A DNA stretch of 64,000 bases from Leucoraja ocellata. Its lineage: Eukaryota. How positions within the stretch are numbered: position 1 is the first letter of the stretch; each line of letters starts with the position of its first letter. The stretch covers positions 620,001 through 684,000 of the forward strand of contig JAWMAR010000471.1 in assembly GCA_036785375.1 (NCBI GenBank). Direction: 5' to 3'. Of this stretch, positions 2,610 to 61,555 are shown piece after piece. The position numbers were made by a program, and so were the translations under genes. The notes beneath the pieces were generated by a model that saw nothing but the letters and a program-made list of their open reading frames with translations, had not been told where the DNA came from and searched no databases.

Positions 2610-3521
2610 TTATTTTACACCAGGTTTTCTCGATTTTATTAAACTTACAGTTAGGGTGAAGGGGTACATGAGTACCTGGAGCAGATGCTCTCTGAACCTC
2701 CTCTGGGTCCGGTGTAAATGACCGTGTTTGGTGCAGGTGCTCAACAGTTGTAGCAGAATTCCAGTTTGTTAAATGTTGGAAATCGGTTCATCAACACCCC
2801 TGGCCCGAAATGCATTCGTAATTCGATAGAAAACGAAATATACTACATTTGTGCTCCAGAGCACCATAAAACTGCTGGAGATTGCAAGGAGTAAAATTAC
2901 AGACCGTCTGCGGTTTGCGATCTCGGGGTCCTCATTACTGAGATCGCGGAGTTTTCTGCGGACACGACTGGCCACTAAAATTCGTCTAACTGTGAGCACG
3001 TTCATCAGCATAATTAAACAAAATGGAATGACAGGGACAAGCAGCTGTTGAGTCCAGGAAAATGCTATCCACGAGGATAGGCTATAGAAGTGATATCTTA
3101 TTAGGCAACCCCACTGTATACCCTGCTGATCCCTGACATGATAATTGTACGCAAACGGCCAGGGGACGTTCAGTAAACAGAAGAACGCAGTTAGGGTCAC
3201 TATAACCACCAGCGCGGTTCTCTCCGTGCAGTATCTGGTTCTCAGATTCTGAGTGGAAATGGCCACAAAGCGATCAAATGTGAAAGCGACCGTGAGCCAA
3301 ACAGAACAGGCAACGGCCGCGGGAGCAGGACATAATGGACCTGCACACAGTATTGTGGAGTAAGAATGTGTCCCACCAGTAAAGGTCGGCAATCCGATGT
3401 AATATCACTTCGCAGACAATCACCGAGAGGTCCGCCGTCGCCATGGCCACCAGGTACCGAGTGGTGCATTTGGAGAGACCACAATTTCTGCGCGACAGGA
3501 TCACAATCGCCAACAGGTTCA
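2610..3521 (-). pseudogene. GPR139/GPR142-like GPCR 'A', exon 2; frameshifted (pseudogene or consensus errors)
   Basis: ORFs 3274-3570 and 2769-3392 are two frames of one 7TM sequence nearly identical to intact GPCR-E (60642-61555). Acceptor ttttccag at 3522-3529. Net -2 shift near 3325-3331, in-frame TAA at 2769-2771, further +1/-1 indels near 2710-2735, paralogous stop at 2610-2612. Confidence 0.85.
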
Positions 3522-4419
3522 CTGGAAAAGAGAAAACTGTCGTTACATGTAAGAGAAACGCGATGCTCATTTGGAGGCGGGGGTCACATTTGGGTTACAC
3601 TTTGCACATTTTTTCGAAAACAACTGGCCCACATGCAAACCTGTGTGCGTGCTAAGGAGCTGTGCGGATTAGCTAACAGCGGTATACGCAGGCAGCGTGA
3701 GCTGTCTCCCAGCCACCCGTGATGCACCGCAGACTGCATATAGCAGCAAAACATGTCCGCATCAGATGCCATCGTCCTGGACCTAAACAGTTCCCGGGAA
3801 CAGCCGGGCAACAAAGGTGTCGAAAGTTAGATTCCCATTTCTCCGCTGGAGAACTTGCCTTCAACACTATTCCCATCCAAACCATTGATTAACTCACGAG
3901 CCTTAGCGATCAGCACCCAGCTTGCGAGTGCACACTTGACGTTCTAATGAACATACCTTAATCAGTGAGAATTAGTATTAACACCACTTCCACAATAATT
4001 CTCTACAACGGTGCCGCATAAAGATGTCTTCCCCGTCCCCGACTCTTCACCCTGTGCACTCACGACCCCGCGTCCAAATTTGCTGTGACTGCTCCCGCAA
4101 GTTTCCAGATAATGACAATCTATACGTCCATATCAACTAGTCGAAGGAGCAATTGTCGATTTCAGGAAAGCGATGGATCACCGGCACAATCAATGATGCT
4201 GAAGTGGAATTGATTGAGGATTTCAAGTTCCTCGGAGTTAATATTACCAACGATATTTCATGGACGACCACATCGAAGGGAAAGCCAATGGCAGAACAAC
4301 ACCTTTACTGGGAAGTCTGAGGAACTTTGACCTGCCTCTGATGACTCAAACATGCTGCTACAGATTAGCGTAGAAAGCATACTGTTGGGTACAATACAGC
4401 TTCTGCGGGCACATCTCAA

Positions 4420-5440
4420 TACAACAATACACAATACACAATACAATTTATTTGTAGGCTTGAACCTCATAGAGGCTCAAATGAAATGTTTCTGCGGCCA
4501 TCCACGCAAGAAAAAAAGACCCAAGACACAACACAATTTACACAGACATCCATCACAGCGCATCTCCTCCTCGCTGTGATGGAAGGCAAAAAAACAGTAT
4601 CTCTCCCCAGCACTCCCATTTACCTCCCGCTGTCAGAGGCAAAACCCCCGGCGGGCGATGGCAATTGTCCGCGGCCATTAACGCCGCGCAGGGTGATGCA
4701 AGGCCGCGCTCCGGGTCTTGTTGTTGGAGCCTCCGGCGGGCGCTAGAAAAGTCCCGCAGCCGTTGAAGCCACGCCGGGCGATGATGTAGGCCCCGCTCCA
4801 GGTAATCCTCGACCCGCGACTCGGGCAGGAGAAGTCGCCGTTGCGGAAGCCCCCGAAAAGCGGTCTCTCAGCAGGGACCGCGGGCTCCCGATATTACTGT
4901 CTGCCAGACCTGCGGTAAGCCTCCGGAATCTCCGGGGGTCGGGTCGCAGCAGCGCGCCACCACAGCTCCACCCGCTCCGGACTCGGCCAGCTCCATGATG
5001 GTGAGTCGCTCCGCAGCTCCGCGACTGGAGCCCCAGGTCGTTCCTGCTGGAGGCCGCTCCACGTTGCAGCCCCAACGACAGGGAAGAGGTCGGGTTGTCC
5101 GTGCAGCGGAAAGATTTTAAAAGTTTCCGCCCCCCCCCCCCACACACACACATACCCCAAAAAATAAATTAAAACCACATGTATTTATCTACTTATTTAT
5201 TTATTTATTTATTTTATTTATTCCGAACAAGTAAAGACATTAAAGACATTAATAGTGACAAAATCGAAATTATCAAATAATTGGACATTACAATCAATGT
5301 TTACAAGCAATGAAAAGAACAAAAAGCAAATGTCCAATGTCCAACTCTGTGTCTGTACAAGCTCGAAAAGGAGTGAGAAGAAGAATAACTTATTAAATCT
5401 CACCCCCTACATTAAAACGGGACCAAAAATAACAACCGCT
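4420..5440. mobile_element. Interspersed repeat insertions in the intron of the left-arm GPCR only
   Basis: Begins with (ACAAT)n and (TTTA)n tails; absent from the right arm. Confidence 0.55.
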
Positions 5441-5874
5441 CGTTCCATCACCCGTCCCTGCACCCGTCGGGTAGAACATAACAGAAGGCTTAAATGCTTG
5501 CAACACCAGACTCAGAACAACTTATACGCTCTGTTGGCAGGATTCTTGAGCCGCTCTTCCATATGCCAGGGCGTTGCCGTTTCACCTCTATCCCCCTTGC
5601 GGACATTGGGCTTTGTGGATGGTGATACGCAGCAGTGCGCTCCCAAACTTGAACTACGCTCTGCACTCCGATTTCCCCTCTCACACTACCTGTTACTGAG
5701 ATTGAATAGTTTGTACTGATATTTAATATTATTTGATCTAGGTGCATTGTTGTCATGTCTCTCCGGAAGCTTTTTGCAGCCCCGGAGAGACATGAACAAC
5801 AATGCACCTAAACCTGAATCTGAAGAGAATTAACCTGTGCCAGATCCAATGAAAGACCAACGATCAAGTAGATT

Positions 5875-6045
5875 AACAAAGGAATAGGTGACGTTTCGGG
5901 TCGAGACCCTTCTTCAGACTGATCAGTCTCGACCCGAAACGTCACCCATTCCTTCGCTTCATAGATGCCGCTTCACCCGCTGTCTAATTCTCTAGCATAT
6001 TTGTCCACCTTCGATTTCTCCAGCAACTGCAGTAATTTCTTAAAC
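5875..6045. mobile_element. Penelope-derived short palindromic repeat with hammerhead-like core
   Basis: Inverted repeat; CTGAAGA-AGGGTCTCGACCC-GAAACGTC on minus strand at 5890-5917; mirror copy at about 59135-59300. Confidence 0.65.
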
Positions 6046-6187
6046 ATTTCTTAATACCGCCCTAACCTGAAGAATGCAGTCTAGCATTCCCGTGTTTGGC
6101 ACACTATTTTCACTTTACCTTATACATTGTCTTTATCAACACTTCATCCCACGTCTCAGTCCCACTTACTGCGTTCCATTGACCTAC

Positions 6188-6257
6188 CTGGTATTGCAAT
6201 TGCTGCTAGAATTGGATAATAATAATATTCAACTGTCAAGTGCCGCATCCAACTCAT
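6188..6257 (-). CDS. GPCR 'A' exon 1 (MSWMRHLTVEYYYYPILAAIAIP)
   Basis: 70 nt from ATG to G|gtaggt donor; phase 1 joins exon 2 as P-V-N-L-L; paralogous to 58912-58981. Confidence 0.85.
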
Positions 6258-8968: not shown

Positions 8969-9760
8969 AACACCAGGAAAACAAAAGAGCTCATGTGTCG
9001 ACTTCAGGAGGCACAGCACCGACTTAGTCCCCCTATATCAACGGCGAGTGTGTGGAGAGGGTCAACACCTTCCGGTTTCTCGGCGTCCATATCGCTGCTG
9101 ATATCTCCTGGACAGACAACACGACAGCGGTCATCAAGAAGGCTCAGCAGCGGCTGCACTTGCTGAGGGTCCTCAGGAAGCACAACCTGGACTCTAACCT
9201 GCTGCTGACCTTTCTACCGCTCGTACATCGAGAGCCTACTGACATACTGCATTACAGCATGGTATGGCAGCTGCACCATGGCAGACAGGGAGAGGCTTCA
9301 GAAGGTAACTAGGACATCACAGAAGATCATTGGCTGCCCTCTCCCCTCCCTGATGGACATTTACACCTCCCGCTGCCTTAGCAGGGCAAAGAATATCATC
9401 AAGGACAGCTCCCATCCTGCGTTTGGACTGTTCGACCTGCTGCCCTCTGGAAGGCGCTATAGGTGCATCAAATCCAGGACAAATAGACTCAGGAATAGTT
9501 GTTTTCCGAAAATTATAATTACTCTTAATTCACACATGCACTGACTTCACAGCCCAACACCCGGACTTTCCATCTGTATATATGTATGTAGCGCCCCAGA
9601 ATTGTGCACCTACCCCCCCCCCCCCCCCTCTTCTCCTTCTGTTTTGTTTTCTGTTTCTTGTTTTCGTATTAAATTATATGTATGCACTGAGTACGAGCAG
9701 CTTTTAATTTCATTGTACATGTATAGTGACAATAAATGGCATATCATATCATATCATATA
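8969..9760 (+). mobile_element. Rex1/Babar-like LINE 3' fragment
   Basis: ERVNTFRFLGVHI...KKAQQRLH and LLPSGRRYR motifs; (ATATC)n tail. Confidence 0.8.
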
Positions 9761-10182
9761 AAACGTGGATTCAAGTGGCTTATTATAACTATTAGAAGTG
9801 GATTCTAAGAAGGTAGTGTTTTTATTAAAATTACAATAAGATGTTTGGTAATCACAGTGTCATAAATGAAAGGGTAGAGGCGGCGGGTACATCTGGAATA
9901 CGTAATCAGAATGGACATTATTTTATGGGAAATACTTTAATTTAACTTTAAGCTTCACATCATTAACGTCGTGTTAAAACGGAATTGCCTAACAGCTGCT
10001 GAACAGACGAAACATCGCGTTCCACCCAAAAATAAATGATCTTCAAATATACATAATTATCCACAGGTTTCCCTGATCATCCATCCATCTATTATTATAT
10101 CTCTATTTCCTGGCAGTCCAGCTGATCACAACAGCAATCACAGCCACCTAGAGGCAGAGAATACGCAACAGCACTCGTCAAT

Positions 10183-10817
10183 TAACCATATAACAAAACA
10201 TATAACAATTACAGCACGGAAACAGGCCATCTCGGCCCTACAAGTCCGTGCCGAACAACTTTTTCCCTTAGTCCCACCTGCCTGCACTCATACCATAACC
10301 CTCCATTCCATTCTCATCCATATGCCTATCCAGTTTATTTTTAAATGATACCAACGAACCTGCCTCCACCACTTCCACTGGAAGCTCATTCCACACCGCT
10401 ACCACTCTCCGAGTAAAGAAGTTCCCCCTCATGTTACCCTAAACTTATCCCTCTCCTTGTTATCCCTCTCTTTGTACAATTTTAACATTACATCCCAGCT
10501 TCTATACTCAATGTTCTGATTTATAAAGGCTAGCATACCAAAAGCTTTCTTTACCACCCTATCTATATGAGATTCTACCTTCAAGGAACTATGCACGGTT
10601 ATACCCAGATCCCTCTGTTCAACTGTATTCTTCAATTCCCTACCATTTACCATGTACGTTCTTTTTAGATTTGTCCTGCCAAGGTGTAGCACCTCACATT
10701 TATCAGCATGAAACTCCATCTGCCATCGTTCAGCCCATTCTTCCAAATGGCCTAAATCACTCTGTAGACTTTGGAAATCCTCTTCAAAGTCTACAGAGTG
10801 ATTTAGGCCATTTGGAA
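10183..10817 (-). mobile_element. CR1-clade LINE fragment with 5' fold-back
   Basis: LQSDLGHLEEWAERWQMEF...KCEVLH...QRDLG; perfect 33-bp inverted repeat at 10741-10817. Confidence 0.85.
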
Positions 10818-10868
10818 TTCTGCAAGGCACAGAAAGAACATGCAAACCAAATAAGACGTTTAATATGT

Positions 10869-11345
10869 TTAAGAAGGGGCTGCAGATGCTGGAAAATAGA
10901 AGGTAGCCAAACGTGCTGGAGAAACTCAGCGGGTGCGGCAGCATCTGTGGGGCGAAGGAAATAGGCGGAAATCCTTCTACAGACTGATGTTGGCGGGGGC
11001 GGGAAAAATAAAGAAAGAGGAGGAGCCAGAGGGGCTGAGGGAGAGCTAAGAATGGGAGGAGACAGTGAGGGCTACCGGAAATTGGAGAAGTCAATGTTCA
11101 TGCCGCTGTGGTGTAAATTACCCAAACGAAATATGAGATGCTGCTCCTCCAATTTCCGGCCGTGCTCACTCTGGCCATGGAGGAGGCCCAGGACAGAAAG
11201 GTCAGATTCGGAATGGGAGGGGGGATTGACGTGCTGAGCCGCCGGGAGATCAGGTTGGTTATTGCGGACCGAGCGGAGATGTTCGGAAGGAACTTCAGAT
11301 GCTGGAGAATCGAAGGTAGACAAATCAAGTGCTGGAGGAGGAACA
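10869..11345 (-). mobile_element. Penelope-like element 3' fragment
   Basis: RKLEEQHLIFRLGNL...GMN resembles the C-terminus of the PLE GIY-YIG endonuclease; followed by the short repeat seen elsewhere in the window. Confidence 0.72.
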
Positions 11346-11664
11346 TATAATACAAAGGTTACTTGGAATTCGCCCATGGAAGTGCATGGGTTGGACCGTG
11401 GTGATCCGTTCCTGAGCGACGCGTTATGAATAAGACGAGAGAGACGGCTCAAAGATGCAAGCATTTTATTTAGGAGCTATATCCGTAAATATATTATCTA
11501 TCCCGTTTCTGTACCGCTGGTCTCTCGTCCTCAAACACGCTGAGACGGCGCACAGAGCGATATTGAAGATAAAGAGATTGTGAATCGCACCCCTCCCTCC
11601 ACCCACGCCCCGACACACATTTCCATTTGAACATATATTTATTCTTTGTACTTATTATCAAGGG

Positions 11665-12140
11665 AATCAAATGTTGCATTCCCGATCCTGGCCTCGCTCC
11701 ACTGGCTCCCTGTGCGGTTCCGTATACATTTCAAGACCCTCATCTATGTCTACAAAGCCATCGATGGGCTTACCCGCTCCTACATTAAAAGTCTTCTCAC
11801 CCACAACTCAGATCGAACGACTTGGGGCGTCTGAATATCCCTCGGTCTAGGCATAAACTTAGGGGGCGACCACGCCTTTGCGGTTACAGCTCCTAGAGTG
11901 TGAAACAGCATCCCCCTTCCCATCAGAACTGCCCCCTCCATCGACTCCTTTAAGTCTAGACTAAAACATTGTCTATACTCACAAGCCTTTCCTGACGTCC
12001 ACTGAGCGAGGGTTATATGTATATATGTATGTAGTTTGTTTGTTTATACTATTCTTATAACAAATGTAAAGCACTTTGACCAACGAGAGATGTTTTTTAA
12101 ATGTGCTATATAAATAAATGTGACTTGACTAAATGTGACT
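11665..12140 (+). mobile_element. L2-clade LINE 3' fragment
   Basis: PILASLHWLPVRFRIHFK...YKA motif. Confidence 0.75.
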
Positions 12141-12173
12141 ATTCTCACTTGTACTCACTATTTGACCCATTTC

Positions 12174-13069
12174 CTAATTTCTTTCAAGGGGGGATTGAAT
12201 CGCATTTTTCAACTGCTCTCTGAATTTGGTCTGCGTCCCTGCATAAATACAGGAGTTGGTGCAGGAACTGAGAAGCTCCAACATGTATCCGCTCTCCTGT
12301 AGAATAAACCTTGGGGTCATTGGAATTGGAGCCGCTGGCATAATAACTATGCTGGTAAATTGCACATATAGAAAATTGACAACATATGTCAACCGCAACA
12401 GGAGAAAACTGCCCGAGATTGCCATGAGTAAAATGATGGACTTTCGCCTGCTCTCCATCTCTGGGTCCCTCTGTTTGGGACCAGTGCTCTGGGCCCTGAG
12501 CCTCCTGCGAACTCCACTGGCTGACAGAATGTGCCTGACCGTCAGAATATTGAGCAGGAAAATCGAAACGAAGGGGAAAAAGGGATTTATAATGCGGTCA
12601 AACCAGTCAGAAACCCTCCATGCAATCGAAGTATAATAGACATCTTTTATGGTGCAGTACCAGGGCACATCGTCAATGATGTAGGCAGGCTCGTATACAA
12701 AGTAGGTTGGACGTTTTTTCAAACAACCCACCACACAGATTGCGCACACGACGATATTCGCGATTCTCTCGCGGCAATACCTAAGCTTCAGTCCCTGGCA
12801 ACAAATGGCGATGAAGCGATCGAATGTGAATGCGACCGTCAGCCAAGAGGACGTGTCCTTGGACGCCCAGCTCAGGACAATAACGAGACTGCAACCCGGA
12901 GTGACGGAGAGCAAGCTGACTGGAAAATATATCGCTCGAAGTCGGCTTAATATCACAGCGTTAATAATAACCAGGAAATCCGTCACTGCCATGAACACCA
13001 GGTAGCGTGTGATGCATTTGGAGAGACCACATCCTCCGATTGACAGGATGACTATCGTTACTAAGTTCG
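12174..13069 (-). CDS. GPR139/GPR142-like GPCR 'B', exon 2
   Basis: Acceptor ttctcttacag ending at 13070; reads (A)NLVTIVILSIGGCGLSKCITRYL...WLTVAFTFDRFIAICC...SSCTNSCIYAGTQTKFREQL. Local compensating indels are present and the true stop may be 12158-12160. Confidence 0.88.
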
Positions 13070-14912
13070 CTGTAAGAGAAAGGGAGATACTGGATCAGTC
13101 GGAATCAGGCTGCCCTCTACATCATCAGCGTATTGAGGAAACGGGAAAATGTATTTTCCCAATTAATCTTTACAATACAATACAATACAATATTCATTGT
13201 TATTTGAACCGCAGTAGGCTTAAACGAAATTCTGTTTCTACAGCCATACAAACAAAAAAACGATTCCTACTCGACGCACAACCAATTCACACAAACATCC
13301 ATCACAGTGAACCTCTTCCTCACTGTGGTGGAAGGTAAAGTATTTTCTTTCCCCAGTTCTTCATTTTTCTCCCGATGTTGAAGCCCGTTGTAATCTTAAT
13401 GCTATTGGAATGCCTAAATGGATATCAATGTGCGCTTTGGAGCTGATTATGCCAGTTGAACTCGCGAATGTTAAACAAAGGTCTTAATTGCCCGCTTCAA
13501 GGATCCAAACTGGTAAAATACCCCTAGAATGACCCACCGAGTCCACGGGGAACATCGCTCTCCCGTTCACTCGAGTTCTGTCATCACACGGTCAAGGGGC
13601 AATTTATCGTATGAAAGAATGAATAAGAACGAATTAGTTTATTAACCAAGTATTCACATACAAGGAATTTGCCTTGGTGCTCCGACCGCAAGTGACAACA
13701 TACAGTGGCCTAGGAATGACACATAAAACATTAAACATTAATATTAAAATGTATCGATTAAACATGTGAATTAAATAAAATACCAGAACAAAAGGAGGCT
13801 ACAGATTTTTGGTTATTGAGTCGTGGAAAAAAAATCTGTTTTTTTTATTTCTGGGTGTGGCAGCGTTGACAGTCCGGAGTCGCCTTCCAGAGGTAAGTGA
13901 TTCAAAGAGTCTGTGTATATCTATACACTGTAATTTGCTCGATTGCAATCATATATTGTCTTACTGCTGACTGGGTGGCATAAAAAACACAAGCTTTTCA
14001 CTATACCTCGGCACACGTGACAGTAAACAAAGTTGTAAATTGCAAACTGTAAACTGTATAATACAACTGTATAAACTGTAAACTGTATAAACTGTATAAC
14101 TGTATATGGATGAGAAGAGAATGGAGGGTTATAGTACGAGTGCAGGCAGGTGGGACTAAGGGGGAAAAAATGTTCGGCTTGGACTTGTAGGGCCGAGATG
14201 GCCTGTTTCCGTGCTGTAATTGTTATATGGTTATATGGTTATATGGTTATATGGAAGCAAAAGCATTCTGGTTTAAAAACTGCATCATATCAATCTGAAC
14301 ATTCCGTGTTGATGTTATATTCCCACATGCCTAATTATTCGTCGTGGTAAATAATTTGTTACATACCCGTGCAAAAGTAACACCAGAAAATAAACATTTA
14401 GGTAGATTAGTATGTGGGACACCGCAGCAAACGTTTGTGGATGGATAACGAGAAGTTGCATCGGTCGGACAGGATGAGCATGTGTAATTAGCTTAATATC
14501 CTCAGTCGATAATTCAATTTTAAATGATAGCAACGAGGCACGTTTCAAATTTTAAGCAGATTACTATCAGTGATGTTCTCACTTGCCCAGAGAACGTCGA
14601 TATTCCAGTCAAAAGTGCAATCAAACGTAATTTTAAACAAAAGATGAGACAAGAAATATACGCGATTTCATTGCACAGGCCAATATTATAGAACACGTTA
14701 TTTTTGAATCAATATTAACAACCTCCCCTTGCAAGTAATTTGGTCAAATTAATATTTACTTTCAATCTCACAAACAGCGGAGATCTGGGGCCGTATTTTC
14801 TTTGCACCGTAAGAAAACTGAAATAAAATGACCACCAATTAGTAATAAGCAATTGCTGCGCGGCGTGACCGACAGAGTCACTGTACGTTGTTAACAGGTA
14901 CTGGTGCCTTAC

Positions 14913-14982
14913 CTGGGACACCGAACGATGCAAGGAGAGAATAGTAAATTGCAAAGACCGGCCCATTTCCAGGAGCGTGCAT
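14913..14982 (-). CDS. GPCR 'B' exon 1 (MHAPGNGPVFAIYYSLLASFGVP)
   Basis: 70 nt, G|gtaagg donor; homologous to exon 1 of GPCR-C and GPCR-D. Confidence 0.88.
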
Positions 14983-16273: not shown

Positions 16274-16500
16274 GGGACAACAGATGGCGCAATGGGCTAA
16301 GTGTTCGGCTGGCGACCAGAAGGTAGCCGGTTCGAATCCCGCTTGGAGTGCATACTGTCGTTGTGTCCTTGGGGCAAGACACTTCACCCACCTTTGCCTG
16401 TGTGTAAATGTAATGTAATTATGTGAAGCACTTTGGGGTCAATGCAAGTTGACTAAAAATGTGCTATATAAATAAGATTATTATTATTATTATATTATTA
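16274..16500 (+). mobile_element. tRNA-derived SINE
   Basis: A box TGGCGCAATGG, B box GGTTCGAATCC, (ATT)n tail, flanked by AACTGTG. Confidence 0.75.
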
Positions 16501-17772: not shown

Positions 17773-18009
17773 GAGATTCTCCAGCATTTTTGTCTGCCTT
17801 CGATTTTTCCAGCATCTGCAGTTCTTTCTTAAACAATTCATTGAAGCATGTAAGTTTGTGAGCTAATTTGTTTTTCTCCGAGAAATGCAACTAACAATGT
17901 TAATGGTTTGAGCTATTTTTAGATTCAATGGCGTGATCTAATATAAGGAGATGTACTGCAGTATTAATTTCACAATCGACATTTTACCAGGGCGTCGTTC
18001 TAACGGATT

Positions 18010-18079: not shown

Positions 18080-18225
18080 GTGAAGAGTGAAAATAGACTA
18101 AACGTGGACAAAACACGTATAACCGTTCGTTGCTGAGTATTTTGATTGTTCAATATATTTTTTCATGATTTATTTTCAGCTACCTACAGAGTGTTTCGAC
18201 GACGAAGTGTATTCCTTCGATTTTT

Positions 18226-49200: not shown

Positions 49201-49614
49201 AATTAGGAAGCCTTCTTTGTCTATTCTGATCCATTTGGCGAACTGGGATGTTTTCATTTGCATGTATTTACTCCATAGTTATCCAAAGACTTCTTATCCA
49301 TATGTCTGGCCAAATATATTTTAAAAGTAGTAATTCTATCCTCCAATAGCTTCTACTGGCAAAAATCTAAACTAAAAACAGGAAATCCCGAAACACTCAC
49401 CAGGTCAGCCAGCATCCGTGGCAGAAAAAAAACACAGTTAATAATTCACAACGCTTCGTCAGAACAAGGAAAACGAATCAAGCCCCTTTTAAGTTGCAGA
49501 AATGGCGGTGGAAGGACGGACAGTTCTATAAATGTTTAACGGGGCATCTGATTTTTTTTAATGTCTTCTTTTTGACGATAAACCAAACTTCATAAAAAAG
49601 ATTTATTGTCTTAC

Positions 49615-49657
49615 CGATAATCAGTGCAACCAATGTAACGGGTGCAAATAGTTGCAT
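49615..49657 (-). CDS. Probable TCR V4 leader exon (MQLFAPVTLVALII)
   Basis: 43 nt hydrophobic peptide, G|gtaaga donor, phase 1 giving II-GQSNG; about 4 kb of mostly repeats separate it from the V exon; AATGACATCA decamer-like site upstream. Confidence 0.68.
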
Positions 49658-50834
49658 TTTAACTGCTCGCGGATAGTGTGATCGTTTGAGCGTCAAATTC
49701 GTATAGATAATCTCGCAACTGTTGTTGCAATAAGAAGTACAAATAGCTGAGTACATTGGCTGAAGCTGGACTGATGTCATTTCCGTGCAGAACACCAATC
49801 AAAAGGATTCCACTGCGGTGAACAATTAATCCAATACATTTATATTTATTTAGAACAACTCCCACAGTTATTAATGACAGAGAATAGTTAAACCTGCGTC
49901 ATTAAACACATGGCTTCCACTGTGTTCTTTTCCACCAGATACAGTTAGGTAAAAACGTGAGACACAATTCGCAAGTTGACAAAGCCAACTGGACGCAAGT
50001 ACTTTGCGGGGCGAAGAACGCTGCAGTATAGGAGAGTCAGAGGGGACATTCGGTATGTGATGGCGCTCTCCAAATAACAACTCATGAGAGGATATCTCGT
50101 TGATTGTTTCAGTTTTATATCGTGGTAGAATGGTAGGAATGCTTCAAAAAAGACAGAGTAAACTCGAAATAAGGTTGTAATGAGATGACGGTTGTATTAA
50201 TGTAGTGAGAGAGAATGGGGGAGTGAACCATTATTTATGAAAAAGGTGTGGCTCGTTTTAAAGATTTTGGCTAGCTCCATCTGCTGGCGACTTAGTATCA
50301 ATTATATTGAGCTGCATCGTGGAGTTCGTGGCACTGCAGTGCACGGCGGAGTAGGATGTTGGTCTTTTACCAGTTGTTCCCTTGGTTGGCTTGTTAGTTT
50401 CGTGCAGCGAACGGGCGAATCGTTTAAATCGTTTGACTACAGATAATACAGCTACCAAAGAAGCTCACGTCGCCTGTTCCCGTCGCCCTTTCCTCACCTG
50501 TTTCCTAAAATACATCTCCCTCAAGAAAACAAATATACAGCTATTTCTGGAATTGAGTTTTCGATAGTAAACTCCTTGGACATCATTTACTCCCTGCCCT
50601 CGATTCGATCACTCTTTATATTAGTGATTTCTCGGACACTGGTCTTTATGTCAGTGGTGATTAGCAGTAAATAATCCCATCACAATCTATGATCTTGGGT
50701 GATATTTGCCGCAGTGACGGCAAAAATACTTCGCGGGCTATTCGCATCCGTGAAACGCTTCATAATTCCTACCGTTCACGGTATGTCTTCGACACATAGG
50801 CGGTAGCCTGCGACATTTTAAATAATTGACTTAG

Positions 50835-51578
50835 GGGAAGTACAACGGTGATCAGGGTGGTCCTTGTACATCGGTCTATAAAAGTAAGCATGCCGGTACA
50901 GCAGGCAGTGAAGAAAGCGAATGGCATGTTGGCCTTTATAACAAGAGGAATCGAATGTAGGAGCAAAGAGGTCATTCTGCAGTTTTACGGAGACCCTAGT
51001 GAGACCACACCTACAGTATTGTGTGTAGTTTTGGTCCCCTAATTTGAGGAAGGACCTTCTTGGTATTGAGGGAGCCCAGCGTAGGTTTACAAGGTTAATT
51101 CCCAGGATGGCGGGACTGTCATATGCTGAGAGAATGGAGCAGCTGGGTTTGTACACTCTGGAGTTTGGAAGGATGAGAGGGTTCCTCTTTGAAACATATA
51201 AGATTGTTAAGGGTTTAGACACGCTGGAGGCAGGAAACATGGGGAGTCAAGAACCAGGTGCCACAGTTTAAGAATGAGGAATAAACCATTTAGAACGGAG
51301 ACGACAAAACACATTTTCGCAATGAGAGTGGTGAGTCTGTGGAACTTTCTGCCTCAGAGGGTGGTGGAAACCGGTGCTCTGGATGCTTTTAAGAGAGAAC
51401 TAGATAGGGCTCTTAAAAATAACGGAGTCAGGGGATATGGGGAGAAAGCAGGAACGGGGTAGTGATTGGGGGTGATCAGCCAAGATCACATTGAAAGGCG
51501 GTGCTGGCACGAAGGGCAGAATGGACTACTCCTGCACCTAGTGTCTATTGTCTATTGTATATTGTCTATTGTCTATTG
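50835..51578 (+). mobile_element. CR1-clade LINE 3' fragment
   Basis: KKANGMLAFI...QRRFTRLIP; (TGTCTAT)n tail. Confidence 0.83.
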
Positions 51579-52436
51579 ACTTTGTTTGCGTTCCATGAAA
51601 ATACCGTCGACGATATCCAACCGGGAAGGTATGTATGAGAAGCGCTACTATCTTGCTCAAGATTTGCACGTGGATTATCCAGTGAAATTGGCTTTTGAGT
51701 CGATTTCGTGGAAAACAAAACTGACGCTCCGCTTCTGAAATAGAAACTACGCTCTCGCGGTTACCAAAATTGCAATGCCACCTACAGGTAAGTATAGGCA
51801 TCGACATAAATCTATTCATTTGGGGGAAAACGAGTGTTGGCAAAGTAGTAGCCAAAACTAATCCTTGATAGACACAAAAAGCTGGAACAAATCAGCGGGA
51901 CAGGCAGCAACTCTGGAGAGAAGAATGCGTGACGTTTCGGGCCGAAACCTTTCTTCAGACGTCTCGACACGAAACCTCATCCATTCCTTCTCTCCAGGGA
52001 TGCTGCCTGTCACACTGTGTTTCTCCAGCTTTTTGTGTCTACCTTCGGTTTGAACCAGCATCTGTAGTTCCTTCCGACACACATTTAATCCTCGTCGTGT
52101 GAGATCATGATGGGGCGGCCCCCTTTGGACTGTTAGTGGAAAAATGCAACGGACAGACCCAGGGACACATTTTTCTGCAATATCGGTTCCTTTTGCACTC
52201 GCGTACCTGCAGGAGTTTCAGCTATATGCACTAGTTGCATCTACTTTATCGGGATAGGTTCGATTAATTGCTAGTTTCGAACCCCCTAGAGCAAATGTAT
52301 TTGAAAATTCCTTTGAAAACCGTTGAAACAATTAGCGATCGATAAGGATCATGTAGCGGACTGCACAGTGTACCCAGGGGAACAAAGAATGCCGTGTTTT
52401 TCTCTATATCGTGTCTTCTTGTTCCTTTGGGCCACC

Positions 52437-52450
52437 TCGCCCCCTGGCGA
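52437..52450 (-). promoter_or_regulatory. CTCF-like motif downstream of V5 RSS
   Basis: TCGCCAGGGGGCGA, 24 bp after the nonamer. Confidence 0.55.
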
Positions 52451-52474
52451 GTGCTCACGAGATTGGAAATGGTA

Positions 52475-52513
52475 AGTTTTCGTTCGGGTCCGTTACACGT
52501 CGGTGGCAGTGTG
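52475..52513 (-). other. 23-RSS of V5
   Basis: CACACTG + 23 bp + ACGAAAACT. Confidence 0.87.
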
Positions 52514-52817
52514 GGGTTCATGACACAGAAGTACACGGCAGATTCGGAGATCACGGACTTGCGGATCGTCAGCTCGGTATTCTTGGCAGTTTTATTGAAC
52601 GTATAAGAGATTCGGTCTGTGAGGTATCTCGTTTCAGTTTGTGTCCCCCTTGTAATCTGAAGCAGGTAATACGGAGGCTGGCCAGGGCGCTGGATGTACC
52701 AGTAGACATATGGGTATGGATCGGTTGTTTTCAAGGTGCAGGTTAGGTTGATGTTACATCCCTCTTCGGACATAATTTCTCCCACCAGTTGTTCCACTGA
52801 GTCTTGCAGGCTCCAAT
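52514..52817 (-). CDS. TCR alpha/delta-type V segment V5 (family I), V exon
   Basis: Acceptor ccttttattag; DSVEQ...INLTC...VYWYIQRP...ESAVYFCVM; followed by a 23-RSS. Confidence 0.92.
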
Positions 52818-52948
52818 CTAATAAAAGGCAATACAACTGTCATCAATATTACATTTCTCAAACAAGCTATTTTTATTCCAGCAAGATAAACATCAGTATT
52901 AATGAGGTCAAATGAACCCTGCAATTTTAATGGGAAGTAAATCCTCAC

Positions 52949-52994
52949 CAAGAAGTAACGCAATGATAAGGAGCGGCGCTAATTGTTTCTTCAT
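52949..52994 (-). CDS. TCR V5 leader exon (MKKQLAPLLIIALLL)
   Basis: 46 nt signal peptide, G|gtgagg donor, 131-bp intron similar in size to V1 and V2. Confidence 0.85.
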
Positions 52995-54227
52995 GATGCT
53001 CGCTGTGTTTGTAAATTTGTGGTCATCAGTGACGGTCTGTTTCAGCTAAAATACTACATGCCCCACCCGCGTTGATCAGCTGAGCAAACCAATCGCAAGC
53101 AGCTACACCCAGAAACGCCTCTTCAGTAACACTGGCAAGGAAATGCACGGAACCTTAGCAGCATTCTTAAGATGTAGGCGGGTCCGCGACAAGAGTGGGG
53201 GACTGGATAAAGCCTGTAGGGGGAAGAAGGTCACAAGAATCCCTCAGTGGCAACAGGAGCTGCTGGAGCTGGAGGTAGTTGAAGGGAAGATTGTGACGCA
53301 AGTGGCTTGCCGAGCCATCGACTGCGAATGGAGGTAGTGAAGCGAAACGGTATGAATGGACATTATTTCCTTCGCAGTCTGAGGAAGGGTTTCGGCCCGA
53401 AACGTTGCCTATTTCCTTCGCTCAATTGATGCTGCTGCACCCGCTGAGTTTCTCCAGCATTTTTGTGTACATTAGCAGAGATATTGTGACCTGGGTATGT
53501 GACAAACACGAGATATCTTTATGTCTTCTGTCCAGATTTCCCGTTTACGGGGCTCGTAAGATAAAGCATATTCTACTCTGTCATCGAACATTTTAGTCAG
53601 AATATATAGCGGTGAACAGTAACCTCCAGATTTTGAATCATAGAGAGCTTCCAGGAATGATCTAGATCTGATTAATAAACATAGATGGCCAATTATTCCT
53701 ATAGGGTGGGCTGGGCGCATGACAGAGAAACACACAGACAAATACATATTAAGAGAAGATAATAGGTGAGGAAATGTTAAATTGCACAGCACGTGACCGG
53801 AGACGTTGAACAGAGTAACGTTAAGTGCGGTGTTTGCATTCACAATTATCATCATTTATTGGCATACTTTCTTCAGGTTGACATGTAATAGATCAGCCAG
53901 TTTGGAAGCTCGTGGCAACAGTGCGACAAAGACATGAACAAAGCAACACAATGACTATCTTCTAACTGTGGAAAGTATGCGCCACCTTCATTGGTAATTG
54001 TAATTTATCTGGAGAGGAATACACTTAAATACACTGAAATTGATCATTCCAATGGAATTGTGATATTTTCTTTCTTATTCCAGCGAAGAACAAGAAACTC
54101 AGTAAATGAAATGGGCAATAACCTCGATATTTACTTTTACCTGTAGAATCTGCGAATGCTGACCAGATGTAATTTGCTTCCCTGTCGACTTATGCTTGAA
54201 GGTATCTAGCACTCATGGTATGACATA

Positions 54228-56312
54228 TAGACAATCGACAATAGACCATAGCCAATAGGTGCATGTTTCCTGCCTCTAGCATGTCCAAGCCCTTAAAAAT
54301 CTTACATGTTTCAATGATATCTCCTCTCGTCCTTCTAAGCTCCAGAGTGTACAAGCCCAGCTGCTCCATTCTCTCAGCATTCGGCTCTTCGAGCCATCAC
54401 CACCGTTCAATATGATCCTGGCTGATCATCCAGAATCAGTACCCTGTCCCTGCTTTCTCCTCATGTCCCTTGATTCTGTTGTCCGAAGAGCAAAGTCTAA
54501 CTCTCGCTTGAATACATCGAGTGAATTGGCCTCCACTACCTTCTCTGCCGGATAATTCCATAGATTCAAAGCTCTCTTGTTGAAAACGATTTTCCTCATC
54601 CCAGTCCCAAATGGCCTACCCCTTATTCTTAAATTGTGACCCCTGGTTCTCGACTCCCAACATCGGAAACATTTGTCCTGTATAATTCCTTAAGAATCTT
54701 ATATGTTTCTATAAGATCCCCTTTCACCCTTCTAAATTCCAGTGGATATAAACCCAGTCGATCCATCCTTTCACCATATTTCAGTCCCGCAAGAATGCCC
54801 TTCCTCAAATAAGGAGACAAAAACTGCGGTCTCGCCAGGATCGCTTTGCTCCTTTACACACATCCTCTCGCTATGAAAGCCAAAATGCCATTAGCTTTCT
54901 TCATTGCCTGTTATACCTGCATGCTTACTTTCAGTGTTTAATGTACAAGGACACCAGTGTCCCGTTGACACTCCCCTTTTCCAAATCTGACACAATTTAG
55001 ATAATAATCTGCCTTCTTGTTCTTGCCACCAATGTGCATAAACTCACACGTATCCACATTATATTGCATCTTACTTGCATCTGCCACGCACCGAAGCAAG
55101 TCACCAGGCGGCCTCATCGCATTCTCCTCGCAGCTCACACTGCCACCCAGCTTTGTGTCATCCGCAAACATGGAGATGTTGCATTTAATTCCTTCGTCTA
55201 AATCGTTAATATATATTGTAAACAACTGGAGCCCCAGCACTTAGCCTTACGGTACTCCACGGGTCACTGCATGCCATTCTGAAAAGGACCTGTTATTTCC
55301 TACTCTTTGCTTCCTGCCTGCCAACCAGTTATTTATCCGTGTCAATAGCCCACCCCCAATACAATGTGCTGCAATTTTGCACACTAATCTCCTGTGGTGA
55401 ACCTTGTCAAAGCTTTTTTGAAACTCCAGATACACCACATCCACTGGCACTCCCTTATCCACCCTACTTGTTACGTCCTCAAAAAAATCCCGAAGATTTG
55501 TCAAGCATGATTTCCCCTTCAGAAATCAATGATAAGTCTGACCTATCCTGTCACTGCTATCCAAATGCGGTTCTATTAATCTATTAATAATCGATTCAAG
55601 CATCCTCCTCTCTACCAATGTCAACCTAACTGGTCTATAGTTCCCCGTTTTCTCTCTTCCTCCTTTCATTAAAAAAAAGTGGTACATTAGCTATCCTCCA
55701 GTCCGCAGGAACTAATTCACAGTCAAAAAAACTGATCACCAATGCAAGCACGATTTCTCGGCCCACCTCCGTGGCTACTCTGGGATGCAGACCATCAGGT
55801 CCTGGTGATTTATCTGTCTTCAGTCCCAACATTTTACCCAACACTATTTCATGACTAATGTGAATTTCCTTCAGTTCCTCAATCACGATAGAACCTCGGT
55901 TCTCTAATATTTCTGGGAGATTGTTTCTGTCTTCCGTAAGTAAGTACTTGTTAAACTGGTCTGAAATTCCTTGCTTTCCATTGTAAATTTACCTGTAATT
56001 CTGTCTGTAAGGGACTTTTGACTACATTTATTGCATCAGCTGACATTATATAAAGAAACATAGAAACATTGAAAATAGGTGCAGGAGTAGGTCATTCGGC
56101 CCTTCGAGCCTGTACCGCCATTCAATATGATCATGGCTGATCATCCAACTCAGTATCCTGTAACTGCCTTCTCTCCATACCCCCTGATCCCTTTAGCCAC
56201 AAGGACCACATCTAACTCCCGCTTAAATAAAGCCAATGAACTGGCCTCAACTACATTCTGTGGCAGAGAATTCCAGAGATTCAGCACTCTCCGTGTAAAA
56301 AATGTTTTGCTC
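54228..56312 (-). mobile_element. CR1-clade LINE fragments
   Basis: KSPGPDGLHPRV, VDVVYL.F.K.FDKV and FTIYINDLD...FADDTK motifs. Confidence 0.87.
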
Positions 56313-58911
56313 ATATTTACACTATCCAGTAATATTTACATGTCAAGCCATGAAATTGTCATCTAACATCTAACTTCAAGCCAAGAATTTGTCCGTAGGT
56401 TTACTCTGTCCGCCTGTCCACTATTCGCATGTGGTGGAATGACCATGCGTGGACAGAGGATCGGCCAGCTCATGCGATATGTCTACGCAGAGAGAATAAT
56501 TCCACTTGATACATCGTCAGAGAGATATAGAGGCATACCCCACGGGAACAGCGCTTTGGGCCCAACTTGTCCATGATGACCAAGATGCCCCTAGTGTCAT
56601 TTTCCCGCGTTTGCACCATACCCCCCTACGCCTTCCGTATCCATATACCTGTCCACATGTGTTTTCAATACAGTACCTGTCATACGGCTCCCTCTGGCAG
56701 CACGTTCCATATACCGGGCACTCCCTGTGTGAAACAGTGTGAATGCAGTGCAAAGGGCCTGTCCCTCGAGCATGCGACTCCATGCGGCAAGCGCGACCTA
56801 ACGTGGTCGCTAGAGCCGTTCAGGCTCGCGTGGCCGGTCCCACTTCGATCGCCGGAGGCGTATGGAGTTGTGCCGAGCTGGTCCCGACATCGCGCGGGGC
56901 TCCGAAAAACTGACTGTGTTCATAAATTCCGCGCGGCAACGGTCTGCCTGACCGCAGCCGCCTCGCCGCCTCGCCGCCTCGCCGCCGTGTCACTCACTCG
57001 ACCTCCGCGCGGCTTCCGCTTCTGGTTTGGTCGCGCTCGCAGGATGACACCAGGACTTTATTGCAAGATCGAAGAACAACACATCATCTTCCCCCGAGGC
57101 AAGGCGCAAATTTCTGAACATAACATATGAGTCTCCAACTCTACTAAATCTCTCTTCCTCGTCATTTGGAACACAATTGGGCATTTCGACGACTGTCTTG
57201 ATTATATTGTCTCTCGTGAAAACGTTCCAAACTTGAAATGTCAAATCACAACATCGTTCGGTCCAGAGAAATAAAATATCCTGCCCTATACAGTCTCTCT
57301 CGGAATTCAACCTCTCCATTCCTGGCAAAAACGTTGTCATTAATACTCTGCCACTCCCCAGATTAATGGTATCATCGCTAACATATTGCGATCTGAACAA
57401 CATTGCACGTGCGGTCTCGCCAACGTCCCAGACCAGATGGTTAAACTCCACTTATGCCCAACTGCGTGTTACTCCTGCAGTGAAATAAGCCGACACCTCA
57501 AGCTGGCTGAGGGGAAACAAATCTTAACATCCACATTCAAATTTACTCGCATTGGTTGCAAGCAAATTGTTCATGAACAAGATGGAGAAAAGGCCATGTC
57601 TCTGTGCTGTGTAACATGCAACTACCACTTACAGTGAGAGTTGGTTCAATATACCTGCCTCTCCCGTGAAGGAGAGTTGGCGCGGCGTCCCCTTTAAATA
57701 TTTACCGCCTCATTTTAGACTTTTGCCCTCTTTTAGAGACCTACATCCGAGGAACACAGTAAAATACCACAACTGATCTTCTTGTCATATGTTAACCCTC
57801 CACAACTCCTCCAGGTTTTGTTCGCAGCAGAGGGATAAGGCTTCTGCATTAGCCAGTCCATCTCACAATTCACACTCTCCAATATTAATACCATTCTTAT
57901 GAATAGAGTTGCATACTTAAATGAATCCTAAATGCACTATTTCGAAAAATAATTTCCCTCCCCCTGTGGTGTACTGCTCTGAAGTTTTTGTCAGTGAATT
58001 GCTTAGGTCGAGTGCAGCAAACATAACACTTCTTTCTTGGGTCAAGACTTTCTTCAGGATGATCTATCCCCAAACATTTACAGCCGGTGAGATTCTCCTT
58101 AACCGATTCAATCACCTTGTACATCAACATACTTGACATCTCCAACGGATCATTGAATTGAGAAAATTTCGCTCTAATATCTGGAATAACATCAAAAGCT
58201 GTTCACCTCTGTGTTTTATGAATTAACACATTTCTTTAACGATAATCTGATCAAGAATATTTCTAGCCGTTGTATATTTCCAGTCAGTTATCACATTACA
58301 CGTTATATTCGCCTATTCCTTACTTCATGAAGTGGCAACAGTTGAAATAAATTAATGCTGCTGTTGTAGCTGAATTGTATACGATGTCGTCTAGAAGGTT
58401 CCCTGTGGTTTACATCATTTAGACCCTGCCCAAAAATGATAATCTTTCCTTTTGAAAGGCAGCTCCACGGATAATGCAAGATTAAATCATTAATGGGTGC
58501 ATGTTAAATGAATGGAACGGTGTCTGGAAAATGCATTGCAAATGCGACAAGTAATATATTGTATTACATCGTAGTATGTGTGGATAAATGCTACATTACA
58601 CGTATTTTGCTGCATCTGTGTGCCACCCGTTAAAATTTAAAAATAGAATGTTCACTCGTATTTTACAGTTCCTTAGTTCTGTTGGTGCTCAGCTGGTGCC
58701 TGAGTAGTGAGCGGTCGCATAATGAGTTTGATCGCTTTGCATCACCTGGGAGCAAACTATTTGTTCAACGGTCCACAATAAATGTCCGCGGGGAGGTGAA
58801 CGCACGCAGTCCTTCAGTTTTTTCTAAGAATATAAATATAGCGCTGTTTGACTTCTCACTTTGACTCCTTTAAGTTTTGCACTGCATAACTGCGGACGGC
58901 TTGAAGGAAAA

Positions 58912-58981
58912 ATGAGTTGGAAGCGGCACTTGGAAGTTGAATATTATTATTATCCAATTCTGGCAGCAATCGGAGTACCCG
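58912..58981 (+). CDS. GPCR 'E' exon 1 (MSWKRHLEVEYYYYPILAAIGVP)
   Basis: 70 nt, G|gtaggt donor at 58982. Confidence 0.88.
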
Positions 58982-60641
58982 GTAGGTCAAGGGAACGCAG
59001 TAAGTGGGACTGAGACGTGGGATGATGTGTTGATAAAAACATTGTTAAAGGTAAAGTGTAAATAGTGTGCGAAACACGGGAATGCTAGACTGCATTCTTC
59101 AGGTTAGGGCGGTATTAGCTAGAAAATGTTTGTTTAAGAAATGACTGCAGTTGCTGGAGAAATCGAAGCTAGACAAAAATGCTGGAGAATTGGACAGCGG
59201 GTGAAGCGGCATCTATGAAGCGAAGGAATAGGTGACGTTTCGGGTCGAGACTGATCAGTCTGAAGAAGGGTCTCGACCAGAAACGTCACCTATTCCTTTG
59301 TTAAGCTACTTGATCGTTCGTCGTTCATTGGATATGTCACAGGTTAATTCTCTTCAGATTCAGGTTTAGGTGCATTGTTGCCATGTCTCTCCGGGAGCTG
59401 CAAAAAGCATTGGTTTGCATGAAAAACCAAATTAGATCAAATACTATTAAATATCAGTACAAAGAATTCAATCTCAGTAACAGGTAGTGTAAGAGGGGAA
59501 ATCGGAGTGCAGAGCGTAGTTCAAGTTTGGGAGCGCACTGCAGCGTATCACATCCACAAAGCCCAATGTCCGCAAGATGATATAGGTGAAACGGCAATAC
59601 CCTGGCATATGGAAGAGCGGCTCAGAAGCCTGACAACAGAGGGTAAGAATCTGTTCTGGAGTCTGGTGGTGCGAGCTTTAAGCCTTCTGTATCTTCTGCC
59701 CGACGGGTGCAGGGAGTAGAAGGAATGAGACCCGTCATCTTCCAGAACCCTGCGCAATTTACTCTTTATAGGACATATATGTCCCCACAACAAGCTGTGA
59801 TATACCCAACAGTATGCGTTCTATGCTAATCTGTCGCAGCATGTTTGAGTAATCAGAGGCAGGTCAACGTTCCTAAGACTTCTCCGTAAAGGTGTTGGTC
59901 TGCCGCTGGCTGTCCCTTCGATGTGGTCGTCCAACAAACATCGTTGGTAATATCAACTCCGAGGAACTTGACGTCCTCAATCACTTCCACTTCAGCACCG
60001 TTGTTGCTGACCGGTGATCCACCGCATTTCCTGATATCGATAACTTGCTCCTTGGCCTCGTTGATACTGACATAGAGATTGTCATCATCTGGGAGCTTGT
60101 GGGAGCAGTCACAGCCGCATTTGGCCGCGGGATCGTGAGTGCATGGGAGGAAGAACCCGGAACCGGATGAGACGTCTTTATGCGGCACCGTTGTAGAGAT
60201 TTATTGTGGAAGGGGTGTTATAACTACTTCTCACTGATTAAGGTACGTTCATTAGAACATTAGAAGCTGGTGTGCTGATCGCTAGGCTCGGGAGCTTATC
60301 AATGGGTTGGATGGGAGTAGTGTTGGGAATGGTAATCTGACTTTCGACTCCTTGCTGCCCGGCTGTTCCCGGGAAGGGTTTAGGTCCAGGACGATGACGT
60401 CTGATGCGGACATGTTGCTGCAATATGCAGTCTGCGGTGCAACAAGTGTGGCTGGGAGACAGCTCACGCTGCCTGCGTAGACCGCTGCTACGTAATCCGC
60501 ACAGCTCCTTAGCACGCACCCATGTTTGTATGTAGGCTAGTTGTTTTCAAACAAATAAGCAAAGCGTACCCAAGTTTGACCCCCGCCACCAAATGAGCAT
60601 CGCGTTTCCCTTACATGTAACGACAGTTTTCTCTTTTCCAG

Positions 60642-61555
60642 TGAACTTGTTGGCGATTGTGATCCTGTCGCGCAGAAATTGTGGTCTCTCCAAATGCACC
60701 ACTCGGTTCCTGGTGGCCATGGCGTCGGCGGACCTCTTGGTGATCGTCTGCGAAGTGATATTACATCGGATTGCCGACGTTTACTGGGTGCACTCATTCC
60801 TCTTACACAATACTGTGTGCAGGTCCATTATGTTCCTCGCTCCAGCGGCCGTTGCCTGTTCTGTTTGGCTCACGGTTGCTTTCACATTTGATCGCTTTGT
60901 GGCCATTTCCACTCAGAATCTGAGAACCAGATACTGCACCGAGAGAACCGCGCTGGTGGTTATAGTGACCCTAACTGCGTTCTTCTGTTTACTGAACGTC
61001 CCCTGGCCCTTTGCGTACAATTATTATTTCAGGGATCTGCAGGGTATACAGTGGGGCTGCCTAATAAAATATCAGTTTTACAGCGTATCCTCGTGGATAG
61101 CATTTTCCTGGACTCAACAGCTGCTAGTCTCAGTCATTCCATTTTGTTTAATTATGCTGATGAACGTGCTCACAGTCAGACGCATTTTAGTGGCCAGTCG
61201 TGTCCGCAGAAAACTCCGGGATCTCAGTAATGAGGACCCCGAGATCGCAAACCGCAGACGGTCCGTAATTTTACTCCTTGCAATCTCCAGCAGTTTTATG
61301 GTGCTCTGGGGCACAAATGTAGCATATTTCGTTGTCTATCGAATTACGAATGCATTTTGGGTCAGGGGGTTGATGAACCAATTTGCAACATTTGAACAAA
61401 CTGGAATTCTGCTACAACTGTTGAACACCTGCACAAACACGCTCATTTACACCGTGACCCAGAGGAGGTTCAGAGAGCAGCTGCTCCAGGTACTCATGTA
61501 CCCCTTCAACCGAACTGTAAGTTTAATAAAATCGAGAACACCTGGTGTAAAATAA
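60642..61555 (+). CDS. GPR139/GPR142-like GPCR 'E', exon 2 (intact; 327 aa spliced)
   Basis: Acceptor ctcttttccag ending at 60641; 7TM ORF with CGLSKC, SVWLTVAFTFDRF, DPEIANRRRS and LNTCTNTLIY motifs. Confidence 0.93.

What the first reader, a model, noticed from the sequence alone, without database searches (positions are those of the whole stretch)
2610..61555. Orphan GPR139-like receptor array interleaved with rearranging TCR V segments
Seen: five GPCR genes and five V segments with intact 23-RSSs alternate over about 60 kb (A-, B-, C+, V1+, V2+, D-, V3-, V4-, V5-, E+). Adjacency is within gap-free contigs for C with V1/V2 and for D and E with V3-V5. Known: mammalian TRA/TRD loci have olfactory receptor genes at and among distal V genes, TRB contains trypsinogens, and mammalian GPR139/GPR142 sense aromatic amino acids. 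Inference: this is an independent embedding of an expanded receptor family in an antigen-receptor locus. V(D)J joining would delete or invert clone-specific subsets of GPCR genes, or move them relative to the TCR enhancer, so T-cell clones could differ in GPCR content or expression. Alternatively both families simply co-amplify in the same duplication units.
Basis: partly seen in the sequence, partly recalled or inferred. Interest (0 to 1): 0.85.

Follow-up and report, generated by a model that had tools for sequence, protein, structure and literature searches.

The report
Receptor array inside skate TCR locus
In a skate genome, about 60 T-cell receptor V segments are mixed with about 60 genes of a large orphan GPCR family across 0.94 Mb; the two were repeatedly copied together, and the receptors are likely passengers that T-cell gene rearrangement would cut out or flip.

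Summary
The window lies in a skate TCR alpha/delta scaffold (V, two D, J arrays, C-alpha). Its J-proximal 0.94 Mb holds 62 GPCR loci (46 intact) mixed at random with 60 V loci, 15 of them NAR-TCR-like. All five window Vs have leaders, open frames and 23-RSSs. GPCRs B-E are intact two-exon genes; A is frameshifted.

The receptors are not GPR139 orthologs (under 30% identical; most amino-acid-binding residues changed). They belong to an elasmobranch family with at least 1,428 database members. Eleven of 29 duplicated blocks carry both gene types. On other scaffolds, dead V copies (9 of 9) sit among stop-free receptors (13 of 13). Linkage to the TCR-alpha chromosome holds in 4 of 4 stingrays/mantas but was not shown in sharks.

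Best reading: co-duplication, with receptors as passengers of V(D)J joining, like mammalian olfactory and trypsinogen genes but on a much larger scale. V use and lymphoid expression remain untested. Ten literature searches found no description.

The parts
2610..6257 (-). GPCR A (E-type clade), two exons (6257-6188; 3521-about 2610), frameshifted, spliced frame ends at 105 aa
12174..14982 (-). GPCR B, intact, 321 aa, exons 14982-14913 and 13069-12174; conserved B/C/D clade
18010..22171 (+). GPCR C, intact, 325 aa, exons 18010-18079 and 21264-22171; B/C/D clade
25827..26342 (+). V1: leader 25827-25872, V exon 26000-26303, 23-RSS from 26304; best full-length structural hits are TCR alpha/delta V
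28826..29379 (+). V2: leader 28826-28901, V exon 29037-29340, 23-RSS from 29341
31656..34568 (-). GPCR D, intact, 325 aa, exons 34568-34499 and 32563-31656; 96% to a Leucoraja protein, 72-74% to Amblyraja, Pristis, Heterodontus, Mobula proteins
38596..40232 (-). V3: leader 40232-40187, V exon 38934-38635, 23-RSS from 38634
45222..49657 (-). V4: predicted leader 49657-49615 (4-kb intron), V exon 45564-45261, 23-RSS from 45260
52475..52994 (-). V5: leader 52994-52949, V exon 52817-52514, 23-RSS from 52513
58912..61555 (+). GPCR E, intact, 327 aa, exons 58912-58981 and 60642-61555; recently expanded clade (14 intact copies at C471 503-848 kb)
8969..64000 (.). Segmental duplication unit holding B, C, V1, V2, D, V3-V5, E; 94-99% identical copy at C471:445,978-506,948, further copies on C1182 and C3093

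Best explanation
The J-proximal 0.94 Mb of this skate TCR alpha/delta V region is shared with an expanded orphan GPCR family, the two gene types have been copied together in 10-60 kb duplications, and the receptors are likely passengers that V(D)J joining would delete or invert without that being their function. Shown: the interleaving, D/J/C-alpha on the same scaffold, shared duplication units, V segments on both strands, and decayed V copies beside open receptors on other scaffolds. Inferred: the neighbourhood is old (at least as old as the split of skates from sawfish and stingrays); unequal crossing-over driven by birth-and-death of either family amplifies both; a T cell that joins a distal V by deletion would lose the receptor genes between that V and its J on that allele, buffered by the many family members elsewhere. 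Predicted, untested: the receptors are a ligand-diversifying sensor family, likely for peptides rather than free aromatic amino acids, transcribed from their own promoters in a restricted cell type.
For: 62 GPCR loci (46 with intact exon 2) and 60 V loci (51 with one open frame and an RSS) between C471:411 and 1,347 kb. Order indistinguishable from random. 11 of 29 duplicated blocks of 8 kb or more hold both types, 13 hold GPCR only, 1 V only, 1 neither in the query copy, 3 lie in the J region; one V+GPCR unit is tandemly repeated inside a single contig (1,023-1,049 kb). On C10 and C2063, 9 of 9 NAR-TCR-like V copies share an in-frame stop and a decayed RSS, while 13 of 13 receptors in those fetched stretches have stop-free exon 2 and are sister to a TCR-zone receptor. 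Family matches on 33 scaffolds in three capped searches; sampled clusters on C156, C128:3.85 Mb and C10:6.12 Mb have no V. Precedent: TRAV among OR genes and trypsinogens inside TRB (PMC2275272 passages). In young clades extracellular-facing codons evolve faster (dN/dS 0.77-0.78 vs 0.32-0.44).
Against: The B/C/D clade is old and strongly conserved (dN/dS 0.16). Its members in this genome lie in the TCR zone, on probable alternate copies of it, or on C128 within 10-30 kb of two TRAV-like segments with 23-RSSs; the C1809 member had no V in the 30 kb fetched. Family members share the TCR-alpha chromosome in 4 of 4 rays. Such persistence could mean selected linkage. Genes with the same NCBI label sit in the sawfish MHC. 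The exported receptors show only weak constraint (dN/dS 0.73 at dS 0.05), so their open frames may partly reflect youth. No expression data from lymphoid tissue were obtained.
Confidence: 0.6

Rival explanations
1. The family is an old resident of immune gene complexes (TCR alpha/delta, IgH, MHC) and works in leukocytes as an innate sensor repertoire; linkage is kept for co-regulation or haplotype co-evolution, not through recombination.
For: 13 genes labelled probable GPR139 lie among C4, class Ib and B2M on the sawfish MHC chromosome (PMC10751288 supplement). IgH constant exons lie inside and beside the C128 receptor array. TCR-alpha chromosome linkage in 4 of 4 rays. Faster extracellular evolution.
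Against: The MHC genes are matched by label only; I did not see their sequences. The family occupies many scaffolds, some sampled ones without V. Repeat-rich regions collect any tandem family. No leukocyte expression shown (uninformative).
Confidence: 0.22
2. V(D)J recombination is functionally coupled to the receptors: each T-cell clone keeps or activates a different receptor subset, for instance the gene brought nearest the TCR-alpha enhancer.
For: The whole array lies between the distal V-only array and J-alpha. Vs lie on both strands (31 plus, 20 minus), so both deletion and inversion are possible. Receptor subclades track V types, e.g. one clade with the NAR-TCR cassettes.
Against: No evidence of T-cell expression. 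The tracking is explained by shared duplication. Close paralogs (88% to E) lie outside the scaffold on C128. Mammalian OR and trypsinogen neighbours are regarded as bystanders (recalled).
Confidence: 0.12
3. The interleaving is largely an assembly artefact of mis-scaffolded or duplicated haplotype contigs.
For: The scaffold has 200-N joins every 30-200 kb, inverted duplicate J arrays across gaps, a likely inverted duplicate V array at 0-113 kb and near-identical copies on C1182, C3093, C2754, C4017.
Against: V and GPCR alternate inside gap-free contigs of about 200 kb. B, C and D orthologs are consecutive accessions on one Leucoraja scaffold. Only copy numbers and contig orientation are in doubt.
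Confidence: 0.04

Closest known systems
Olfactory receptor genes among distal TRAV segments in mammalian TRA/TRD (PMC2275272, passages read)
   Same: A rhodopsin-class GPCR multigene family interspersed with RSS-bearing V segments of the alpha/delta locus.
   Different: Mammals have one or two TRAV among ORs at the far 5' end. Here about 60 Vs and 62 receptors mix over 0.94 Mb on the J-proximal side of a V-only array. The receptors are two-exon GPR139/142-related genes, not ORs.
Trypsinogen genes inside TRB (PMC2275272, passage read)
   Same: Non-TCR genes lie between V and C and would be removed by deletional joining.
   Different: Different locus and gene type; far fewer genes.
GPR139/GPR142 (PDB 7vug; PMC5430874 abstract)
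   Same: Closest solved structure by sequence (E 2e-13, next best 3e-6). The intron in TM1 matches my recollection of GPR139 gene structure (recalled, not tested).
   Different: About 80 identities in a roughly 300-column alignment (my count). F109, H187 and N271 align to C, D and Y in the shark member; only W241 is kept, and B and C have R at that position. Single-copy brain receptor versus hundreds of tandem copies.
Shark NAR-TCR cassettes in the TCR-delta locus (recalled; one passage in PMC12698447)
   Same: 15 VNAR-like V segments with 22-spacer RSSs, most near a distinct extra-cysteine V, lie in the zone.
   Different: Here the repeated cassette includes a GPCR gene; I found no report of that.

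Membership tests
TCR alpha/delta locus | V segments with leader, open V-set frame and 23-RSS | tested here: met
   5 of 5 in window; 51 of 60 in the zone by a relaxed RSS score
TCR alpha/delta locus | Many J segments with 12-RSS and a C-alpha | tested here: met
   J arrays at C471:1,399-1,597 kb; C and TM exons at 1,497-1,500 kb; homologs named TCR alpha
TCR alpha/delta locus | D-delta, J-delta, C-delta between V and J-alpha | tested here: inconclusive
   Two D segments with 12/23 RSSs at 1,365.8 and 1,366.9 kb; J-delta and C-delta not found, contig ends at a gap 3.4 kb further
TCR alpha/delta locus | These V segments occur in rearranged transcripts | tested here: inconclusive
   V3 had zero depth in 4 RNA runs of unknown tissue; the only V2 homolog found is germline
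GPR139/GPR142 orthologs | High identity to human GPR139 and conserved agonist residues F109, H187, W241, N271 | tested here: not met
   Under 30% identity; 1 of 4 residues kept in P0004
GPR139/142-related (FMRFamide receptor/Srw-like) branch of rhodopsin GPCRs | Best solved-structure match GPR139; neighbours are GPR139, FMRFamide-receptor-like and Srw clusters | tested here: met
   no tree with true GPR139/142 or outgroups was built
Olfactory receptors / TAAR / V1R | Family-specific Pfam match and single coding exon | tested here: not met
   Only 7tm_1 (and a weak Srw) hit at E<=0.01; two coding exons
Chemosensory or immune sensor repertoire | Sparse expression in sensory neurons or leukocytes; ligands known | not testable with these tools
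   Tissue of available runs unknown; ligands need assays

The most novel reading that the evidence does not exclude
Elasmobranchs carry an undescribed repertoire of hundreds of GPR139-related receptors that occupies the TCR alpha/delta, IgH and MHC regions, the places where mammals keep olfactory receptor clusters, and V(D)J joining gives each T-cell clone its own set of these receptors.
Probability: 0.12. Interest if true: 0.92.

Novelty: new variant of a known kind. Interest (0 to 1): 0.62.

Why it matters
Cartilaginous fishes are described as poor in GPCRs (PMC8455134 passage) and have 6-13 OR genes (PMC10116579 passage). A family with at least 1,428 database members, hidden under the label 'probable GPR139', is a candidate for an overlooked sensory or immune repertoire. 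Its position between the distal V array and J-alpha makes it the largest block of non-TCR genes inside a rearranging locus that I know of (recalled). It gives a direct single-cell test of whether bystander genes are affected by V(D)J joining. The map also gives a first outline of a skate TRA/D locus with NAR-TCR-like cassettes.

Tried and rejected
RNA: no RNA holder was listed for window 28900-32700. Laying 4 RNA runs of unknown tissue on 31340-40640 gave depth 0 on V3 and 0.1-0.9 over part of D exon 2 in 3 of 4 runs, the rest being repeats; this is no evidence either way. Homolog search with V2 gave one germline Logan protein. Pfam DUF1968 found no C-alpha; the C1-set search was saturated by Ig loci. 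Accession proximity between TCR-alpha and GPCR proteins was uninformative. Strict alternation rejected by a runs test. The careful tree did not finish; one search is a quick IQ-TREE tree on 99 rows (47 of the 120 listed homologs or their isoforms, 46 C471 and 6 other G000 genes) without outgroup or one-clade test; one search is FastTree. No structure prediction was run. Literature: 10 searches gave nothing on this family or arrangement; term searches in the catshark, little skate, whale shark, stingray, nurse shark TCR, TRA-evolution and MHC papers found no mention in the main text. Six look-ups (meant for nurse shark TCR-delta locus papers, a primordial immune complex paper and a shark genome paper) returned nothing held, so those papers are unseen. 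The scan's earlier findings returned nothing.
Full report
Observation. Six-frame translation and Pfam show five 7tm_1 genes and five V-set exons in the stated order and strands. A scan for recombination signals finds five 23-spacer sites, each at a V end, against 0.38 expected from shuffles. Each V has a leader exon that splices in frame. The receptors have a short first exon and an intron in TM1. B (321 aa), C (325), D (325) and E (327) are intact. A carries several 1-bp indels and stops at 105 aa. B, C and D are 65-71% identical to each other and 43-47% to E.

Where the window lies. It is G000:C471:620,001-684,000; the nearest named proteins are from skates. I fetched C471 290 kb to the end and 105-135 kb. 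The first 400 kb are a dense V array; no receptor was found in the 140 kb of it that I read. From 411 to 1,347 kb lie 62 receptor loci, 46 with an intact second exon, and 60 V loci, 51 with one open frame and a signal, 31 on the plus and 20 on the minus strand. Fifteen are VNAR-like, mostly near an extra-cysteine V, which fits NAR-TCR cassettes (recalled). Then come two D segments, J arrays and a constant exon with its transmembrane exon, whose homologs are named TCR alpha. C-delta was not found. Contigs are joined by 200-N gaps and J arrays appear as inverted duplicates, so contig orientation and copy numbers are unreliable. Interleaving inside contigs of about 200 kb is not affected.

How the mix arose. 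V and receptor order is random (65 runs vs 62 +/- 5.5). Of 29 duplicated blocks of at least 8 kb, 11 hold both gene types, 13 only receptors, 1 only a V, 1 neither in the query copy, and 3 lie among the J segments. Most of the window is such a block, copied at 446-507 kb. A search with a NAR-TCR-like V also found stop-bearing copies on C10, C7, C2063, C2073 and C3594. In the stretches fetched from C10 and C2063, 9 of 9 V copies share one stop and a decayed signal, while 13 of 13 receptors have stop-free second exons and are sister to the receptor at C471:805 kb. So a V+receptor unit spread outside the scaffold after its V had died. Their dN/dS of 0.73 at dS 0.05 shows only weak constraint.

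What the receptors are. A search with D gave 1,428 proteins at E<=1e-10; of the 120 listed, all named ones are from sharks and rays and nearly all are labelled 'probable GPR139'. Three capped genome searches placed matches on 33 scaffolds. Human GPR139 is the closest solved structure but under 30% identical. Of four residues needed for its activation (PMC5430874, abstract only) the aligned shark member keeps one. Feature neighbours are GPR139, FMRFamide-receptor-like and Srw clusters. The family is therefore GPR139-related, not orthologous, and aromatic amino-acid sensing cannot be assumed. The B/C/D clade includes Heterodontus, Stegostoma, Scyliorhinus, Pristis, Mobula and Hypanus members (SH-aLRT 100, quick tree) and is under strong purifying selection (dN/dS 0.16). 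The young E and NAR-zone clades have 0.52 and 0.62, higher in extracellular-facing codons (0.77-0.78 vs 0.32-0.44; pooled pairwise counts, no significance test).

Conservation. By matching contig lengths, all 10 listed receptors of Mobula birostris, M. hypostoma, Hemitrygon and Hypanus lie on the contig that carries TCR-alpha C: 4 of 4 species, at chromosome level only. Three sawfish members with near-consecutive accessions share a 57.8-Mb contig; sawfish TCR-delta is at chr12:55.6 Mb (PMC10751288 supplement), and that these are the same chromosome is my inference from length. The same holds for the catshark member (133.84-Mb contig) and IgH on chr17 reaching 133.54 Mb. Direct matches in sharks failed in 4 of 4 testable species, several of them fragmented there. 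Amblyraja proteins nearly identical to genes on C471 and on C128 share one 59.9-Mb contig, so C128 likely belongs to the same chromosome. C128 holds large receptor arrays, two TRAV-like segments with 23-RSSs and IgH constant exons. Thirteen genes with the same label lie in the sawfish MHC (label only). Gene-level interleaving in other species could not be tested.

Mechanism. Joining a V to a J removes or inverts what lies between, so any use of the distal V array would affect most of the 62 loci on that allele (established V(D)J chemistry; orientation uncertain here). That this matters to T cells is not shown. The RNA test was uninformative. The simplest reading is co-duplication with bystander receptors (0.6). 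An immune role independent of recombination (0.22) and true coupling (0.12) remain open; artefact is unlikely (0.04).

Comparison and novelty. TRAV among olfactory receptor genes and trypsinogens in TRB are known (PMC2275272, passages). This case differs in gene family, scale and position. Ten searches of the open library and term searches in seven relevant papers found no account of the family or the arrangement; one paper calls cartilaginous fishes poor in GPCRs. Subscription papers on the nurse shark TCR-delta locus could not be read and may mention these genes; supplements other than that of PMC10751288 were not seen. Verdict: new variant of a known kind, interest 0.62.

Noticed in passing
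G000:C471:829-1,237 kb (L036-L078): Fifteen VNAR-like V segments with 22-spacer RSSs, most near an extra-cysteine V; the repeated unit at 1.00-1.24 Mb is NAR-like V + partner V + GPCR. Opposed 12- and 23-RSS sites near 828.5-828.9 kb may mark their D/J pieces.
   Followed up: partly
G000:C10:6.1-6.5 Mb, C7:0.62-0.66 Mb, C2063, C2073, C3594: Orphon arrays of a dead NAR-TCR-like V plus open GPCR, about 20-kb period, derived from the C471 805-917 kb region.
   Followed up: yes
G000:C128:4.55 Mb, 4.77-4.78 Mb, 5.73-5.81 Mb (L122, L128, L129, L132-L135): IgH constant exons inside and beside a GPCR array, and two TRAV-like segments with 23-RSSs next to B/C/D-clade receptors.
   Followed up: partly
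G000:C471:1,375,387-1,375,671 (-): An Ig-like V (single-exon leader+V frame) upstream of the two D segments, possibly a TAILV/VH-delta-type segment (label recalled).
   Followed up: no
G000:C471:1,434-1,494 kb vs 1,507-1,597 kb; 0-113 kb vs 115-291 kb: Inverted near-duplicate J arrays and V arrays across gaps, likely uncollapsed haplotypes or mis-oriented contigs.
   Followed up: partly
G000:C471:1,026,478; 1,039,559; 1,088,367; 1,227,614: A 12-spacer RSS-like site about 100 bp beyond the 3' end of four paralogous GPCRs; one event copied four times, probably chance.
   Followed up: no
window 12174-14982 and 18010-22171: Receptors B and C have Arg where GPR139 and most family members have the TM6 Trp (6.48).
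   Followed up: no
PMC10751288 supplement, sawfish chr34 10.1-13.7 Mb: Thirteen genes labelled probable GPR139 among C4, MHC class Ib and B2M, not discussed in the paper's main text.
   Followed up: partly
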